Positions 16,220 to 29,663 of a DNA stretch of 64,000 nt are shown one piece after another; the first letter of the stretch is position 1, and every line of letters starts with the position of its first letter. The translations under genes were made by a program, and so were the position numbers. The notes under the pieces are model-generated. The model was not told where the DNA came from, did no database searches, and was given only the letters and a program-made list of their open reading frames with translations. Where the stretch lies: positions 192,001 through 256,000 of the forward strand of contig OZ242374.1 of NCBI GenBank assembly GCA_965209055.1. The letters run 5' to 3'. The DNA comes from Acidobacteriota bacterium (GTDB lineage: Bacteria > Acidobacteriota > UBA6911 > RPQK01 > JAJDTT01).

Positions 16220-16300
16220 GCTTCCCCACCGGCCCATGTCCGGCGAAATGCCGGTAGAAAAAGGATGGGAGCGGCGGTTTCCTAACCGCCGAACTGGAGC
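16220..16300 (+). repeat. 81-bp direct repeat copy 2
   Basis: 78/81 identical to 12982-13062. Confidence 0.9.
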
Positions 16301-16374
16301 GGCGATTTCCAATCGCCGAACTCCTGACTGACAAACTTGGCGACAAAGATTGGGCGATTGGAAATCGCCCCTCC
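16268..16374. repeat. Tandem REPs plus REPIN
   Basis: GGAGCGGCGGTTTCCTAACCGCCG, GGAGCGGCGATTTCCAATCGCCG ... GGGCGATTGGAAATCGCCCCTCC; the spacer TGACAAACTTGGCGAC recurs in reverse orientation in the REPIN at about 26276-26353. Confidence 0.8.
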
Positions 16375-25120: not shown

Positions 25121-26254
25121 ATCCGAACGGCGGCAAAACCGGGGCTGGGAATCCTGGACGAGTATCCCCGGGTGAGGCTGTGCCGCCTGCCCACGCCCTT
25201 GGAGGCGATGCCCAATCTGGGTCGTGCGCTGGTCGGGGCGCGGGTCTACGTCAAGCGGGACGATTGCACCGATCTGGCGTTCGGCGGCAACAAGGTGCGC
25301 CAACTGGAGTTCTACCTGGGCGAGGCGAGGCAACAGGGCGCCGACACGATCCTCATCACCGGCGCCGTCCAGTCCAACTTCGTCCGTCTCGCCGCCGCGG
25401 CCGCCCGCAAATCGGGCATGGACTGCCACATTCAACTGGAGGAGAGGGTCGCCAGGGACGATTCTCTCTATAGGAACTCCGGAAACGTTCTGCTGGACCG
25501 GATCCTGGGGGCGACTCTCTATTCCTATCCCGAGGGCGAAGACGAGGAAGGGGCGGACCGGCGGGTGGCGGAGATCGCCGAGGAGCTGAAGGGGGAGGGA
25601 AGACGTCCTTACATTATCCCCCTCGGTCCGGGGCACCCGCCTCTGGGCGCCCTGGGATATGTCGTGGCGGCGGAGGAGCTGCTGGAGCAGATTGCATCGG
25701 GGCAGCTCTCCATCGATGAGGTGGTGGTGCCCTCCGGGAGCGGCCACACGCATGGCGGGTTGTTGTTCGGGTTGAGAGCGCTGGGTTCGCAGGTGCGGGT
25801 GACCGGGGTTTGCGTTCGCCGGAACGCCGGGCCGCAAAAGGAGCGGATCCGGGACCGCTGCGGCGAGATTGCCGAGTTGCTGGAGACGGCGAACCCGGTG
25901 GCCGACGAGGACATCCGTATTGTCGACGACTTCCTGGCGCCGGGGTACGGGCGGTTGAATCCGCCGACGCTGGAGGCGATCCGGATGGCCGGCGGCCTGG
26001 AGGGGCTGATCCTGGATCCGGTCTACACGGGGAAGACGATGGCGGGGCTGATCCATCGGGCTCGGAATTCCGACCCAGGGCGATCGTTCGTGCTGATGCA
26101 CACCGGCGGGACGCCGGCGATCTTCGCTTATGGTGCGGAACTGACCGCCGAATTGGAGCGCCGGTTTCCAACTGCCGATTCCGATTCGGAGCGGCGGTTT
26201 CCAACCGCCGATTCTTGCGGGGACAAGGATGTCCCCGCGCCTATGGGGGACTGA
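25121..26254 (+). CDS. D-cysteine desulfhydrase/ACC deaminase-family PLP enzyme
   Basis: LPTPLE, VKRDD...GGNKVRQLEF, QSNFVR, GSGHT, LDPVYTGK, HTGG; start codon not resolved. Confidence 0.88.
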   Translation: MRTAAKPGLGILDEYPRVRLCRLPTPLEAMPNLGRALVGARVYVKRDDCTDLAFGGNKVRQLEFYLGEARQQGADTILITGAVQSNFVRLAAAAARKSGMDCHIQLEERVARDDSLYRNSGNVLLDRILGATLYSYPEGEDEEGADRRVAEIAEELKGEGRRPYIIPLGPGHPPLGALGYVVAAEELLEQIASGQLSIDEVVVPSGSGHTHGGLLFGLRALGSQVRVTGVCVRRNAGPQKERIRDRCGEIAELLETANPVADEDIRIVDDFLAPGYGRLNPPTLEAIRMAGGLEGLILDPVYTGKTMAGLIHRARNSDPGRSFVLMHTGGTPAIFAYGAELTAELERRFPTADSDSERRFPTADSCGDKDVPAPMGD

Positions 26255-26377
26255 CAGTCCCCCCTTTTGAGAAAAAGGGGGCAATTTCAATCGCCCGGTC
26301 TTCGTCGCCAAGTTTGTCACAACGGAGTGCGGTGGTAGGAAAACCGCCGCTCCACCGGCGACAGGAAAGTCGCCGCT
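26154..26377. repeat. Composite REP array (BIME-like) interrupted by IS110
   Basis: GGAGCGGCGGTTTCCAACCGCCG-type units, a REPIN at about 26276-26353, and a 58-bp unit (26208-26265) identical to 27819-27876. Confidence 0.8.
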
Positions 26378-26394
26378 TGTCTGTTTAAATAAGT

Positions 26395-26558
26395 CCGCCC
26401 GGGCCGCTCATGAGCGGCCCGGGCGGCGGTGGCTGGACCGTGTCGCCGCTGACCGTTAGATCCGGATGTGGAGTAAGGTCGGCCACCGTCTTTCCCGATG
26501 TCCTGAATGGATACGAGGGCATCAAGGCCCGAATGACAAGCATAGGAGACCGGAAAGA
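26395..26558 (+). ncRNA. IS110 bridge RNA
   Basis: 5-prime hairpin 26395-26426; target loop guides GTCGCCGCT (26442-26450) and GTGGAG (26468-26473); donor loop guides ATGGATAC (26507-26514) and GACAAG (26535-26540). Confidence 0.85.
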
Positions 26559-27505
26559 TGAAACAGCATACCGTAGGCATCGACATCTCGAAAGCGCACC
26601 TGGACGCCCACCGGCTGGCCGACGGCCGATCCGCCCGGTTCGACAATGACCCGGCTGGCTTCCGGGCGCTGATCGATTGGATCGGAACTCCGGTCGAGTG
26701 CGTCGCCTACGAGGCCACCGGCCCCTATCACCGGAACCTCGAGGAAGCGCTGTGGAAAGCGAAGCTGCCGCTGTCGAGAGTGAATCCCTGGCAGGCCCGG
26801 TGTTTTGCTCAGGCGACCGGGAGCCGCGCGAAGACCGACACCGTAGACGCCCGGATGCTGGCCCAGATGGGGGCCAGCCTGGATCCGCGCCGGACCCCGG
26901 CGCCGTCCAAGACGCAACGCCGGCTCCAGGAACTGCAGGGGTGCCGGGACGCGCTGATGCGCCAGCGCACGGCCGCGCTGAACCGCCGCGCCCATTTGCG
27001 CGATCCCCTGCCCAAGCGGCAGAACCAGACCCAGATCAACCTGTTCGAGCGCCAGGCGAAGGCCATTGACCGAAAAATGCAGCAACTGATCGCGGCCGAT
27101 CCGGAGCGGGCGCGCAAGTTGGAGATCCTGACCTCCATTCCCGGGATCGCGGCCACCACCGCCGCGGGTCTACTGGCCGAGATGCCGGAGCTGGGCACCC
27201 TGAGCGGTAAGGCCGTCGCCAGTCTGGCCGGGTTGGCCGCCGTTCCTCGCGAGTCGGGGGCTTGGCAGGGACGGGCCTTCATCCGGGGCGGACGAGCGCG
27301 GGCGCGACGGCTCCTGTACATGCCGGCGGTGGCCGCCCTGCGCTGGAACCGCGACCTGGCCGAGGTCTATGGGAGACTGACCGGGCGTGGCAAGCCCGGC
27401 AAGGTGGCCCTGGTCGCCGTCATGCGCAAGCTCATCGTCCTAGCCAACACCCTGGTGAGTCAGGACCGCACCTGGTTGCCCGAAGCGCCCCGTGTGGTCT
27501 GCTGA
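26558..27505 (+). CDS. IS110-family recombinase/transposase
   Basis: VGIDISK, YEATG, AKTDTVDA (DEDD RuvC); SIPGI, AGLA..PRESG (catalytic Ser), GGRARARRLLYM, AVMRKL. Confidence 0.96.
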   Translation: MKQHTVGIDISKAHLDAHRLADGRSARFDNDPAGFRALIDWIGTPVECVAYEATGPYHRNLEEALWKAKLPLSRVNPWQARCFAQATGSRAKTDTVDARMLAQMGASLDPRRTPAPSKTQRRLQELQGCRDALMRQRTAALNRRAHLRDPLPKRQNQTQINLFERQAKAIDRKMQQLIAADPERARKLEILTSIPGIAATTAAGLLAEMPELGTLSGKAVASLAGLAAVPRESGAWQGRAFIRGGRARARRLLYMPAVAALRWNRDLAEVYGRLTGRGKPGKVALVAVMRKLIVLANTLVSQDRTWLPEAPRVVC

Positions 27506-27887
27506 AGCGACGGAGCGAGATGAGGAGGAAAGGGGGCGTGACGGGTCCCCCGAGGAATGATCTGTAGAACTTCCGGTCAGGCCTGGCCGGAAGCTTGCTT
27601 ACGGCCTTGAAAGCTCTTCACGCCCTGGGGAGCGTCGGGTCACCCGAAGGGCCGCAGCGAAGCGGAGGAGCCGTAGGCTTGACCCGAGGCTCCCCAGGGC
27701 GTACCCGCGCCCAGTGGACCGGACAGATCACGTGCCAACAGGAAACCGGACACCTCACTGACTAACGACCCGGGATGGAATCACCGATGAGAACCCACCC
27801 CTTGCAACATGGATACTCCCGATTCTTGCGGGGACAAGGATGTCCCCGCGCCTATGGGGGACTGACAGTCCCCCCTCCGAGGACTGT

Positions 27888-29663
27888 ATGAACCAACTCA
27901 GCGAGCACCTGTTCCGGGTTGACGACACCTGCAGCGTCTACGGCGTCCGGGCCGGCGGAAAGACGCTCTTGATCGATTGCGGGACCGACCTGCGGACCCG
28001 CGACGTGGGAGCAGTCGACCGGGTCCTGCTCACCCATTTTCACCGCGACCAGTGTTCCGGAATCCGGCACTGGCAGGAGCAGGGCGCCGGCGTCTTCATC
28101 CCCGGCGCCGAGCGGCGCTACCTGGAGGAGGCCGACCTGCAGCGGGCGGCCTACTACACTTACGACAACTACACCGCCTACTACCCGGACTTCGGCCCCT
28201 TGCAGGACGTCCGGGGCGCCAGGATCGCCCGCGACTACGAGACCATCGACTGGCAGGGAATCCGCTTCGAGGTCGTCCCGCTGCCCGGACACACCTTCGG
28301 CTCAACGGGATACCTGTTCGAAATCGACGGCCGCCGCGTCCTGGCCTGCGGCGACCTGATGGCGGCGCCGGGCCGCCTCGGCGACTACTACTGGCTGCAG
28401 TGGAGCTACATGGACTTCCAGGGGCACGTCAATCAGCTCGAAAGCCTGGCCCACGCCGCCGATTTGGAGTGGGACCTCATGCTGCCGGGGCACGGAGCGC
28501 CCTTCTCCCGGGAGGAGGCCCGCATCGGCGAACTGAGCGAACGGCTCGCCCGGCTCCACGGCATGTTCTTCGACCAGCCGTACACCCCCTTCCAGGTGGA
28601 GTTCCGCCGCCTGTCGCCCCACGTCTACGAGGTCAACTCCATGGCCAACTCGTATGTCGTCAAGGACGACGCCGGTCACGCTCTTCTCATCGACTGCGGC
28701 TACGTCTCCGGGGCGCCCATCACCGCCAATCCGCACCGCTACATCGACCACCTGACGCCGCGCCTGCGAAGTGAGCTGGGTGTCGAGACGGTGGAATATT
28801 TCCTGCCGACCCATTTCCACGACGACCATCTGGCCGGCTACCCCATGCTCCGGGCGCGTTACGGCGCCAAAGTGGCGGCCGCGCCGGAACTGCGGGACCT
28901 GCTCGAACACCCGGAGCGGTACGACATGCCCTGCATGGTTCCCGACGGGATGCGGGTCGACCGGGTCGTGGCCCGGGGGGAATCTTTCCACTGGCGCGGG
29001 ATCGACTTCCGGATCGAGCAGTTCCCGGGACAGACCTGGTACGACCACCACATCACCTTCCAGGTCGACGGGCGGCGTTTCCTGGCCATCGGCGATGCGA
29101 TATCGGGGCTCCCGTTCCGGGAGAAGCGGGACTACATCCATTCCTTCATCCCGAAGAATCGAACGCCGCTATCGGCATACGGGTCCATACCGCGCAAGAT
29201 CGCGGAGCGGCGTCCGGACGTGATTCTGACCGGGCATGGGGGTGGAGTGGCGTTCGAACAGGCACGGATCGATCTCTGGACCCGGTGGATGGACCGCTGG
29301 CAATCGCTGTTCACCGGTATCGTCGAGGCGCCCCACCCCGACATGGCCATGGATCCCCACTGGGTCGAGTTCCGGCCCTACAAGGTCCGGATCCGCCCCG
29401 GCGACGCCGTGGACTTTCGCCTCTACGTCAAGAATCACGCAGACGAAGAAAAGAGCTGCCGGGTCCGGTTCCGCTCAGTGGATGGCGTTTCCATCGATCC
29501 CTTGGAGCGGGACCTGGTCCTGGCGGCGGGAGAGACCAAGGAGACCGCCGTCCGGGTCCGCTTTCCGCGGGAGTTCTCGACTCATTCCCTGCCGATCCTG
29601 GCCGACGTGGAATGGGACGGACAGAGACTGGGCGAGGTGGCCGAGGCCATCGCCTACTGGTGA
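27888..29663 (+). CDS. Tandem MBL-fold metallo-hydrolase
   Basis: THFHRDQ and THFHDDH motifs, PGHTFG. Confidence 0.88.
   Translation: MNQLSEHLFRVDDTCSVYGVRAGGKTLLIDCGTDLRTRDVGAVDRVLLTHFHRDQCSGIRHWQEQGAGVFIPGAERRYLEEADLQRAAYYTYDNYTAYYPDFGPLQDVRGARIARDYETIDWQGIRFEVVPLPGHTFGSTGYLFEIDGRRVLACGDLMAAPGRLGDYYWLQWSYMDFQGHVNQLESLAHAADLEWDLMLPGHGAPFSREEARIGELSERLARLHGMFFDQPYTPFQVEFRRLSPHVYEVNSMANSYVVKDDAGHALLIDCGYVSGAPITANPHRYIDHLTPRLRSELGVETVEYFLPTHFHDDHLAGYPMLRARYGAKVAAAPELRDLLEHPERYDMPCMVPDGMRVDRVVARGESFHWRGIDFRIEQFPGQTWYDHHITFQVDGRRFLAIGDAISGLPFREKRDYIHSFIPKNRTPLSAYGSIPRKIAERRPDVILTGHGGGVAFEQARIDLWTRWMDRWQSLFTGIVEAPHPDMAMDPHWVEFRPYKVRIRPGDAVDFRLYVKNHADEEKSCRVRFRSVDGVSIDPLERDLVLAAGETKETAVRVRFPREFSTHSLPILADVEWDGQRLGEVAEAIAYW

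What the first reader, a model, noticed from the sequence alone, without database searches (positions are those of the whole stretch)
26369..27820. IS110 with a fully decodable bridge RNA programmed against the host REP family
Seen: the left non-coding end has a 32-nt perfect palindrome (26395-26426) and two internal loops. The target loop (stem 26427-26439/26477-26488) carries GTCGCCGCT, identical to the left flank plus core at 26369-26377, and GTGGAG, the reverse complement of CTCCAC; the actual right flank reads CTCCCG and a neighbouring REP reads CTCCAC. The donor loop carries ATGGATAC, matching the right end at 27809-27816, and GACAAG, the reverse complement of core plus left end CTTGTC. 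Circularisation would create TTGCAA-17bp-TTAAAT with an extended TG, a junction promoter. Established: this is the IS621-type bridge-RNA architecture, and IS621 also targets REPs. New here: a distinct target (GTCGCCG-CT-CCAC) and donor (ATGGATA-CT-TGTC) pair, with the core inside the REP GGAG tetranucleotide. A near-cognate free target exists at 16295-16305.
Basis: partly seen in the sequence, partly recalled or inferred. Interest (0 to 1): 0.75.

Follow-up and report, generated by a model that had tools for sequence, protein, structure and literature searches.

The report
REP-targeting IS110 with bridge RNA
This is a real but ordinary insertion sequence of the IS110 family whose own small "bridge" RNA spells out both its ends and the repeated hairpin it inserts into, as already described for IS621 of E. 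coli.

Summary
Window 26378-27817 is a 1440-bp IS110-group element: a 180-nt left end, a 315-aa DEDD/Ser recombinase and a 312-nt right end. The genome holds three copies, all after GTCGCCG-CT in the 3' arm of the same REP hairpin. A same-genus genome has the uninterrupted site for copy 2.

The left end folds as an IS621-type bridge RNA. Its loops carry:
- a 9-nt left target guide (9/9 matches in all three copies);
- a 4-nt right target guide (4/4);
- an 8-nt left donor guide and a 6-nt right donor guide (all matching);
- handshake nucleotides that follow the IS621 rule.

In 41 related loci the target guides change with the flanks, while the stems keep pairing through compensatory changes. A TTG…/TA…T promoter spanning the circle junction is conserved.

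Corrections:
Five of five sites of elements with this loop read CTCC-C-purine.
- The "near-cognate" site is at 16296-16306, one of nine such sites in the window. The genome has 62 perfect free 11-mers.
- The donor pair is shared by a wide clade.

No RNA, circle or activity was shown.

Verdict: new member of a known kind; low to moderate interest.

The parts
26357..26377 (+). Left half of the target. It is a REP hairpin (GGCGAC 26357-26362, loop 26363-26368, GTCGCC 26369-26374), followed by G and the CT core (26376-26377). The left target is GTCGCCG, 26369-26375.
   Evidence: The same hairpin and junction occur at the other two copies. The genome holds 62 free GTCGCCGCTCC sites, 36 of them with the hairpin.
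26378..27817 (+). The insertion sequence, 1440 bp counted with one CT core.
   Evidence: Three copies differ by 3 or 6 substitutions from the window copy. In a same-genus genome the flanks of copy 2 are contiguous.
26385..26390 (+). The -10-like hexamer TTAAAT, preceded by TGT. It would form a promoter with the -35 in the right end after circularisation.
   Evidence: A conserved TTG…/TA…T pair at 16-18 nt spacing was found in 42 of 42 unique junctions, 36 of them with at least 8/12 matches.
26395..26426 (+). The 5' stem-loop of the bridge RNA, a perfect 32-nt palindrome.
   Evidence: Copy 2 has C to T at 26396, which turns a C-G pair into U-G.
26427..26488 (+). Target-binding loop module:
- basal stem 26427-26439 with 26477-26488
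- left target guide 26442-26450
- distal stem-loop 26453-26465
- handshake UA 26474-26475
   Evidence: stems with compensatory changes; matches; covariation with flanks; IS621 rule.
26490..26557 (+). Donor-binding loop module:
- outer stem 26490-26495 with 26552-26557
- inner CCU/AGG stem
- left donor guide 26507-26514
- distal stem 26517-26520 with 26527-26530
- right donor guide 26535-26540
- handshake C 26541
26558..27505 (+). Recombinase gene, 315 aa.
   Evidence: Pfam PF01548 at 8.5e-22 and PF02371 at 7.8e-19. PDB matches: ISCro4 transposase 1.8e-37 and IS621 transposase 2.6e-36. D9, E52, D94, D97 and S233 are invariant in 23 homologues.
27506..27817 (+). Right non-coding end, 312 nt. It holds the -35-like TTGCAA (27802-27807), the left donor ATGGATA (27809-27815) and the CT core (27816-27817). 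AAC at 27806-27808 and GTT at 26383-26385 form a 3-bp subterminal inverted repeat around the 14-bp donor.
27621..27696 (.). A palindromic insert of about 76 nt nested in the right end. With its neighbours it forms the long hairpin at about 27620-27702.
   Evidence: It is present in the window, L019 and L020 and absent at the same place in L017. One 86% copy lies elsewhere in the genome. Rfam gave only sub-threshold hits.
27818..27822 (+). Right half of the target, after the core: CCCGA. Together with the core it reads CTCC-C-G.

Best explanation
This is an IS110-group insertion sequence that works like IS621.

Proposed mechanism:
- After excision the two ends join at a CT core. This creates a sigma-70-type promoter, with the -35 in the right end and an extended -10 in the left end.
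- That promoter transcribes the roughly 160-nt left end as a bridge RNA.
- The donor-binding loop of the RNA pairs with both strands of the junction ATGGATA-CT-TGTC.
- The target-binding loop pairs with both strands of GTCGCCG-CT-CC. This site is the 3' arm and tail of one variant of the host's REP hairpin.
- The 315-aa DEDD/Ser recombinase then exchanges strands at CT and inserts the element without a target duplication.

Shown here: the anatomy, the matches, the three identical insertion positions, an empty orthologous site, guide-flank covariation across relatives, and structural covariation.

Inferred, not shown: transcription, the circle, catalysis, and the claim that the RNA rather than the protein sets specificity in this particular element.
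For: Protein: Pfam PF01548 and PF02371. It matches the solved IS621 and ISCro4 transposases at E 2.6e-36 and 1.8e-37 over residues 3-297.

Copies: there are three in the 6.08-Mb genome, all at GGCGAC-loop-GTCGCCG|CT|CCC(G/G/A).

Empty site: in one same-genus genome (L108) the orthologue of copy 2's site is a single REP running straight into CT-CCCGAG. In another (L109) it is a three-REP array ending the same way.

Guides: the left target guide matches 9/9, the right target guide 4/4, the left donor guide 8/8 and the right donor guide 6/6. In 200,000 shuffles, all three longer guides in order appeared 0 times. The guide lengths equal those of IS621: 9, 4 and 8 nt (structure-paper passages).

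Handshake nucleotides:
- UA after the right target guide is complementary to donor positions 6-7 (TA) and not to the target's CG.
- C after the right donor guide is complementary to target position 7 (G). This holds in 43 of 50 related loci.

Covariation with flanks, 41 loci with both ends found:
- The best left-guide match averages 7.1/9 against 5.5 for mismatched pairings. It reaches at least 8/9 in 17 of 41, against 1.9% of controls.
- The right guide matches 7/7 in 16 of 41, against 0.4% of controls.
- In one same-genus genome, elements with guide GUCGCCGCU sit at GTCGCCG or GCCGCCG, and elements with ACCGCCGCG sit at ACCGCCG.

Structure:
- Minimum free energy is -86.5 kcal/mol, z = -4.9, beaten by 0 of 200 shuffles.
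- On 47 sequences, 96.6% of cells pair, against 32-54% when partners are slid by 1-3 columns.
- 13 of 22 pairs show changes on both sides. 0 of 500 shuffles reach the covariation score.

Junction promoter: conserved in 42 of 42 unique junctions, 36 of them at 8/12 matches or better.

Target pool: 62 free 11-mers against 12.5 expected from base composition.
Against: - No experiment or read evidence shows the RNA, the circle or transposition. Laying contigs of four runs listed no joint from 27817 back to 26378 and none from 26377 on to 27818.
- No Rfam family reached its threshold on the left end.
- The nucleotides just 5' of the 4-nt right guide do not pair contiguously with any real flank. In most relatives 7-9 nt do.
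- The right end (312 nt) is longer than the left end (180 nt). That is the opposite of the IS110-group pattern described in PMC11208160.
- In the window row the aligned distal stem of the target loop does not pair. Only an offset 3-bp stem does.
- The window copy did not simply land in an ancestral REP. The REP mosaic it sits in is itself absent from six orthologous loci.
Confidence: 0.9

Rival explanations
1. Same element and mechanism, but the right half of the target is read discontiguously. U at 26469 bulges out, so AUG(U)GGAG pairs with CTCC-C-A/G-(T). This would parallel the flipped-out uridines in the right donor guide of IS621.
For: - Five of five genomic sites of elements with exactly this loop read CTCC-C-purine: three in this genome, plus L119 and L138. 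Among free 11-mers, C+purine follows in 10 of 62 and AC in 4 of 62.
- The sister lineage has the contiguous AUGGGAG and sits at CTCCCA(T).
- L119's right flank CTCCCATCC fits the bulged reading 9/9.
- A DNA contig of run X5 with an identical right end continues CTCCCA.
- Flipped-out U159 and U160 in the IS621 right donor guide are described in the structure paper.
Against: - The idea is post hoc and rests on five or six sites. Past position 13 the fit is poor in four of them.
- The distal stem ends at 26465, so there is little room for a linker.
- A 4-nt guide combined with a protein or REP-context preference for C would give the same data.
Confidence: 0.3
2. One reading: a contiguous 6-nt right guide GUGGAG makes GTCGCCG-CT-CCAC the cognate target, and the occupied sites are near-cognate.
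For: - GUGGAG is present at 26468-26473.
- Many relatives use contiguous 7-9-nt right guides.
- Four free GTCGCCGCTCCAC sites exist in the genome.
Against: None of the five occupied sites reads CCAC. Summing my own base-by-base reading of the flanks printed, the contiguous reading matches 6 of 30 positions beyond the 4-nt core, which is about chance.
Confidence: 0.1
3. The left-end structure is only a leader or regulatory RNA, or a protein-binding DNA structure. The recombinase protein alone recognises the REP hairpin, and the complementarity is a by-product of REP-like sequence.
For: - All occupied sites are hairpins. A preprint (abstract seen) reports that a target stem-loop adds specificity for ISPpu10.
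- Transcription was not shown here.
Against: - The guides change with the flanks across 41 loci, including non-REP sites, while the stems are kept.
- Two guide variants in one genome sit in the matching REP variants.
- The donor guides match the element's own ends, which a REP-derived sequence would not explain.
Confidence: 0.03

Closest known systems
IS621 of Escherichia coli (bridge recombinase; PMC11208160, PMC11208158)
   Same: - Same two Pfam domains, and protein similarity at E 2.6e-36 to chain 8wt6_A.
- The bridge RNA lies in the left end, with a 5' stem-loop and two stem-loops that carry internal loops.
- Same guide lengths: left target 9 nt, right target 4 nt, left donor 8 nt.
- CT core, handshake nucleotides, a promoter across the circle junction, and insertion into REP hairpins.
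   Different: - The target is GTCGCCG-CT-CC, against ATCAGGC-CT-AC for IS621.
- Here the right donor guide pairs contiguously over 6 nt. In IS621 it pairs discontiguously.
- The right end is longer than the left end.
- The host is a GC-rich (63%) genome, not an enterobacterium. The element's closest relatives lie in MAGs titled Acidobacteriota.
- Nothing has been tested at the bench.
ISCro4 transposase (PDB 9t56)
   Same: Best-scoring solved relative, E 1.8e-37 over residues 3-297.
   Different: Only the protein was compared. I did not see its RNA or its target.
ISPpu10 and ISPpu9 of Pseudomonas putida (abstracts seen)
   Same: IS110-family elements that insert into repeated intergenic palindromes. 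For ISPpu10, a GC-rich stem-loop 5' of the paired target is reported as a second specificity determinant. Here the left target is itself the 3' arm of a GC-rich hairpin.
   Different: A hairpin requirement could not be tested here. All 3 occupied sites have the hairpin, but so do 36 of 62 free sites, so the difference is not significant.
IS1111-group elements (bridge RNA in the right end)
   Same: Same family and the same principle.
   Different: Here the guides are in the left end, and the subterminal inverted repeat is only 3 bp. This places the element in the IS110 group, not the IS1111 group.

Membership tests
IS110 family, IS110 group (IS621-type bridge recombinase elements) | Recombinase with an N-terminal DEDD RuvC-like domain (PF01548) and a C-terminal domain carrying a conserved serine (PF02371) | tested here: met
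   Both domains score above their cut-offs. D9, E52, D94, D97 and S233 are invariant in 23 homologues. The protein aligns to the IS621 and ISCro4 transposases. Equivalence to IS621 D11/E60/D102/D105/S241 is inferred from spacing, not read from a printed IS621 alignment.
IS110 family, IS110 group (IS621-type bridge recombinase elements) | Insertion at a short core (CT) present at both junctions, with no target-site duplication and no terminal inverted repeats | tested here: met
   CT is at both junctions of all three copies. The orthologous empty site shows one CT. Only a 3-bp subterminal inverted repeat, AAC/GTT, is present.
IS110 family, IS110 group (IS621-type bridge recombinase elements) | Non-coding RNA in the left end with a 5' stem-loop and two stem-loops that have internal loops | tested here: met
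   Fold z = -4.9. In the consensus of 47 sequences, 13 of 22 pairs have compensatory changes and 96.6% of cells pair, against 32-54% when slid. In the window row the distal stem of the target loop is only an offset 3-bp stem.
IS110 family, IS110 group (IS621-type bridge recombinase elements) | The first internal loop pairs with both strands of the target. The second pairs with both strands of the joined ends. Each pairing includes the core. | tested here: met
   Matches of 9/9, 4/4, 8/8 and 6/6. Covariation with flanks in 41 loci against mismatched controls.
IS110 family, IS110 group (IS621-type bridge recombinase elements) | Handshake guides complementary to position 7 (and 6) of the non-cognate DNA | tested here: met
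   UA pairs with donor TA. C pairs with target G at position 7, while the second nucleotide A does not pair with C at position 6. C opposite G holds in 43 of 50 loci. Both sides are conserved, so this is consistency, not covariation.
IS110 family, IS110 group (IS621-type bridge recombinase elements) | [quoted passage not shown] | tested here: met
   By sequence only: TTGCAA-17-TTAAAT with TG. Conserved in 42 of 42 unique junctions. Promoter activity was not tested.
IS110 family, IS110 group (IS621-type bridge recombinase elements) | Left non-coding end longer than the right one (group trait stated in PMC11208160) | tested here: not met
   The left end is 180 nt and the right end 312 nt. Relatives have right ends of 14 to 688 nt. 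The excess here includes a nested palindromic insert of about 76 nt, so this looks like accretion, not a different architecture.
IS110 family, IS110 group (IS621-type bridge recombinase elements) | Expression of the RNA, a circular intermediate, and RNA-dependent recombination | not testable with these tools
   Contigs of three RNA libraries, mostly 90-95% alike, cover parts of the left end and the gene. They may be DNA carry-over and belong mostly to relatives. No circle joint was listed.
IS110 family, IS110 group (IS621-type bridge recombinase elements) | Match to a curated RNA family model | tested here: inconclusive
   At E up to 1, Rfam 15 gave four chance-level hits and none to a bridge RNA family. 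I do not know whether Rfam holds such a family.
REP (repetitive extragenic palindromic) elements, as the target | Short GC-rich imperfect palindrome present in many copies, often in tandem or mosaic arrays between genes | tested here: met
   237 hairpins fit a strict pattern, with 3'-arm variants ACCGCCG 146, GTCGCCG 37, ATCGCCG 28 and GCCGCCG 26. Arrays lie between genes at this locus and at its orthologues. Extragenic location was not measured genome-wide.

The most novel reading that the evidence does not exclude
The element reads the right half of its target through a one-nucleotide RNA bulge: AUG(U)GGAG pairing with CTCC-C-A/G. It is also one of two sister lineages in the same genus whose left guides (GU… versus AC…) have split the host's REP variants between them. 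That would make it a natural case of bulge-tolerant guide pairing and of guide divergence that tracks a repeat family.
Probability: 0.3. Interest if true: 0.35.

Novelty: new member of a known kind. Interest (0 to 1): 0.3.

Why it matters
It adds one cleanly decoded natural bridge-RNA element from a GC-rich genome far from the enterobacterial models. All guide segments can be read, including the handshake nucleotides. There are three resident copies, an orthologous empty site and 62 free targets.

Two features could serve as natural test cases for guide rules. A sister lineage in the same genus is retargeted to another REP variant by two guide bases. And all occupied sites disagree in the same way with the contiguous extended right guide.

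None of this changes what is known about how these elements work.

Tried and rejected
1. Rfam at E up to 1 on 26000-28000 gave only mir-939, RsmW and Collinsella-1, far below their gathering scores. I treat them as chance hits.

2. A metagenome scan with the 21-nt left-guide region gave 16 loci. None has a donor loop or IS110 left end behind the match, so all are chance matches in unrelated DNA. This brought no extra insertion sites. Records of the window's own or a very near genome may have been left out of that collection.

3. Sequencing runs. All four runs laid are contigs, and no circle or empty-site joint was listed. Parts without cover are not interpreted. The small word shares of the RNA runs say nothing about habitat or expression level.

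4. Orthologous empty site for copy 3. The flank belongs to a multi-copy gene family in the relatives, so no orthologue could be assigned. I dropped it.

5. Hairpin requirement of the target. All 3 occupied sites have the hairpin, against 36 of 62 free sites. This is not significant.

6. Whether the IS moved together with its 112-bp left flank. Among the loci with both ends found, only the window copy has a flanking direct repeat longer than 19 bp, so this is not a family trait. The mechanism remains open.

8. Supplementary files of the papers were not opened. The supplementary tables of PMC11208160, which list natural IS110 elements and targets, might already contain this element or its clade.
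Full report
WHAT IS THERE

Window 26378-27817 is a 1440-bp unit. It has a 180-nt non-coding left end, an open frame at 26558-27505 (315 aa) and a 312-nt non-coding right end. The protein carries Pfam PF01548 (8.5e-22) and PF02371 (7.8e-19). Among solved structures it matches only the ISCro4 transposase (1.8e-37) and the IS621 transposase (2.6e-36), over residues 3-297. In an alignment of 23 homologues, D9, E52, D94, D97 and S233 are invariant. Their spacing matches the catalytic D11, E60, D102, D105 and S241 named for IS621 in the structure paper (passages). That equivalence is inferred from spacing.

COPIES AND BOUNDARIES

The window lies in a single 6,077,182-base contig, at C1:192001-256000. 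The unit occurs three times:
- the window copy;
- C1:4550364-4551803, which differs by 3 substitutions;
- C1:1170365-1172997 on the minus strand, which differs by 6 substitutions and is split by a 1189-bp insertion.

All three follow GGCGAC-(6 nt)-GTCGCCG-CT and are followed by CCCG, CCCG or CCCA. For copy 2, same-genus genomes have the orthologous intergenic region without the element. In L108 a single REP hairpin runs straight into CT-CCCGAG. In L109 three tandem REPs end the same way. So the insert is exactly the 1440 bp, with CT at both junctions and no duplication. A tblastn of the genome finds only one further relative, at 43% identity and split over two frames.

THE BRIDGE RNA

The left end folds at -86.5 kcal/mol (z = -4.9), beaten by 0 of 200 shuffles. 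It contains three modules:
- a 5' hairpin, the perfect palindrome at 26395-26426;
- a stem (26427-26439 with 26477-26488) around an internal loop with a small distal stem-loop;
- a second stem around another internal loop.

The first loop holds GUCGCCGCU (26442-26450), identical to the top strand of the left flank plus core. It also holds GGAG (26470-26473), complementary to CTCC at the right junction. The second loop holds AUGGAUAC (26507-26514), identical to the right end plus C. It also holds GACAAG (26535-26540), complementary to CT plus the first four bases of the left end.

These lengths (9, 4 and 8 nt) and strand assignments are those given for IS621: LTG A50-U58, RTG G77-G80, LDG A123-C130.

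The IS621 handshake rule is also met:
- UA directly 3' of GGAG is complementary to donor positions 6-7 (TA) and not to the target's CG.
- C directly 3' of GACAAG is complementary to target position 7 (G).
- The next base, A, does not pair with position 6.

A 3-bp inverted repeat (AAC at 27806-27808, GTT at 26383-26385) brackets the 14-bp donor. This resembles the short subterminal repeat described for the IS110 group.

IS IT MORE THAN CHANCE?

In 200,000 shuffles of the left end, the 9-mer, 8-mer and 6-mer appeared in 277, 344 and 8,913 shuffles. All three appeared in the right order in none.

The stronger test uses relatives. One search found 2,505 proteins with E of 0.001 or less among the 8,000 candidates scored. 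An alignment of 23 of them brought 80 loci from genome records. Their record titles name these groups:
- MAGs titled Acidobacteriota: 81-88% identity;
- MAGs titled Vicinamibacterales, Longimicrobiales and others: about 55-62%;
- alphaproteobacteria: about 46-54%.

A script found both element ends in 41 loci, counting the window copy and copy 2. The other loci lacked one end, or the motif used to find it, and were left out.
- Left flank plus core: the best match in the 5' half of the target loop averaged 7.1 of 9, against 5.5 when loops were paired with other loci's flanks. It was at least 8 of 9 in 17 of 41, against 1.9% of controls.
- Core plus five right-flank bases: the match was 7 of 7 in 16 of 41, against 0.4% of controls.

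Kin are not independent, so these are not exact probabilities. But the loops differ between lineages, and the flanks differ with them.

Within one same-genus genome (G007), two elements with GUCGCCGCU sit at GTCGCCG and GCCGCCG. The latter would be a U-G wobble. Two elements with ACCGCCGCG sit at ACCGCCG.

On an alignment of 47 non-redundant left ends, the consensus structure has 22 pairs. Thirteen of them show changes on both sides. 96.6% of cells pair, against 32-54% with partners slid by 1-3 columns, and 0 of 500 shuffles reach the covariation score.

The guide columns are unpaired. They are variable in the target loop and invariant in the donor loop. This fits the conserved ends (ATGGATA or ACGGATA, then CT, then TGTCT). 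The window row does not form the aligned distal stem of the target loop. It forms an offset 3-bp stem, 26453-26455 with 26463-26465.

JUNCTION PROMOTER

Joining the ends gives TTGCAA, 17 nt, then TTAAAT with TG upstream. All 42 unique junctions among the relatives have a TTG… hexamer in the right end and a TA…T hexamer in the left end, 16-18 nt apart. Thirty-six of them match at 8/12 or better. This is the arrangement reported for IS621. Promoter activity was not tested.

THE TARGET FAMILY

The 11-mer GTCGCCGCTCC occurs 62 times unoccupied in the genome, against 12.5 expected from base composition. Thirty-six of these have GGCGAC 4-8 nt upstream, which makes the hairpin.

A strict hairpin pattern finds 237 REP-like elements. 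Their 3' arms are ACCGCCG (146), GTCGCCG (37), ATCGCCG (28) and GCCGCCG (26). So this element is aimed at a minority variant, and its sister lineage in related genomes is aimed at the majority variant.

It is one of nine one-mismatch sites in the window, against 4.44 expected. It is nothing special.

GUGGAG would want CTCCAC. The three copies here read CTCCCG, CTCCCG and CTCCCA. The two G007 elements with the identical loop read CTCCCA twice. A DNA contig of run X5 with an identical right end also continues CTCCCA.

Among the 62 free sites, C+purine follows in 10 and AC in 4. Five of five C+purine would have a probability of about 1e-4 under those frequencies. This figure is post hoc, and it applies G000 frequencies to G007 as well.

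Either only the 4-nt guide is used and something else favours C, or U 26469 bulges so that AUG(U)GGAG reads like the sister lineage's contiguous AUGGGAG. L119's flank CTCCCATCC fits the bulged reading 9 of 9. I rate the bulged reading at about 0.3. [quoted passage not shown]

EXPRESSION AND HABITAT HINTS

Fifteen of the 24 listed run rows hold at least half of the sampled words. Among them are runs labelled marine, coral-reef and sponge metagenomes.

Contigs of three RNA libraries from two studies, mostly 90-95% alike, cover 26399-26505 and 26470-26974. Where they leave the stretch, at 26454 and 26482, they continue with other guide sequences. That is what related elements with different target loops would look like.

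RNA libraries can hold DNA, and contigs cannot show starts or levels. So this is only a weak hint that such left ends are transcribed.

COMPARISON AND NOVELTY

Everything tested fits the IS110 group as defined by IS621, except that the right end is longer than the left. Right ends in the clade range from 14 to 688 nt. Here the right end contains a palindromic insert of about 76 nt that a sibling element lacks, so I read the excess as accretion. This fits a 2026 preprint on IS110 growth (abstract and section 8 read).

REP targeting by IS110-family elements is in print (abstracts of the ISPpu9 and ISPpu10 papers). PMC11208160 predicts bridge RNAs in 85.7% of the IS110-group elements in ISfinder.

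Two literature searches listed no paper that pairs bridge RNA or IS110 with Acidobacteria. Only the top rows were shown, and supplements were closed.

The finding is therefore a correct and unusually complete decoding of a new member of a known kind.

Noticed in passing
window 26208-26265 and 27819-27876 (with 26266-26377 between the first repeat and the IS): A perfect 58-bp direct repeat brackets a 112-bp REP mosaic plus the IS. In six same-genus genomes the orthologous intergenic region has one copy of the 58-mer, with no mosaic and no IS. The mosaic is itself a repeated unit, with a 98% copy at C1:2952855-2952944 that carries a free target. So the landing pad arrived recently at this locus, before or together with the IS. 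Among the loci with both ends found, no other copy has such a repeat.
   Followed up: partly
genome C1:1171727-1172915 (copy 3 of the IS; equivalent to window 26459/26460): A 1189-bp IS5-family element (DDE_Tnp_1 plus DUF772) is inserted with a TTAG duplication into the loop of the distal stem of the target-binding loop of copy 3. That copy keeps an intact recombinase gene (2 aa changes) but cannot make its own bridge RNA. The IS5-like element has 9 identical copies and 15 copies about 93% identical in the genome.
   Followed up: partly
window 27621-27696 (hairpin about 27620-27702): A palindromic insert of about 76 nt is nested in the right end. It is present in the window, L019 and L020 and absent at the same spot in L017. 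One 86% copy lies at C1:2368165-2368230. In several runs its central 35 nt (27639-27673) lie on contigs that continue with unlike sequence on both sides. This suggests a small mobile or repeated palindrome of unknown kind.
   Followed up: partly
L017 versus L019/L020/L021 (one MAG, record OZ253580.1): Within one genome, one copy has A instead of C at position 5 of its left target guide. It sits at ACCGACG-CT, a site with no obvious REP hairpin, while its siblings sit at ACCGCCG-CT. This is a single-base natural retargeting.
   Followed up: no
window 26396 and 26543: Copy 2 has C to T at 26396, which keeps the 5' hairpin paired as U-G. The window copy has T at 26543, where copy 2, the relatives and the one contig of each of the four laid runs that covers the place have C.
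   Followed up: no
genome C1:2084638-2085542: The only other IS110-family relative in the genome: 43% identity, split over two reading frames, probably a pseudogene.
   Followed up: no
L122, L128, L121 (same-genus genomes G001, G003): A third guide lineage has left guides CACGCCGCU or GACGCCGCU and right guides ending CUGGAG. It sits at CTCCA… sites. L122's right flank would fit its guide 8/8 if one RNA base were bulged.
   Followed up: no
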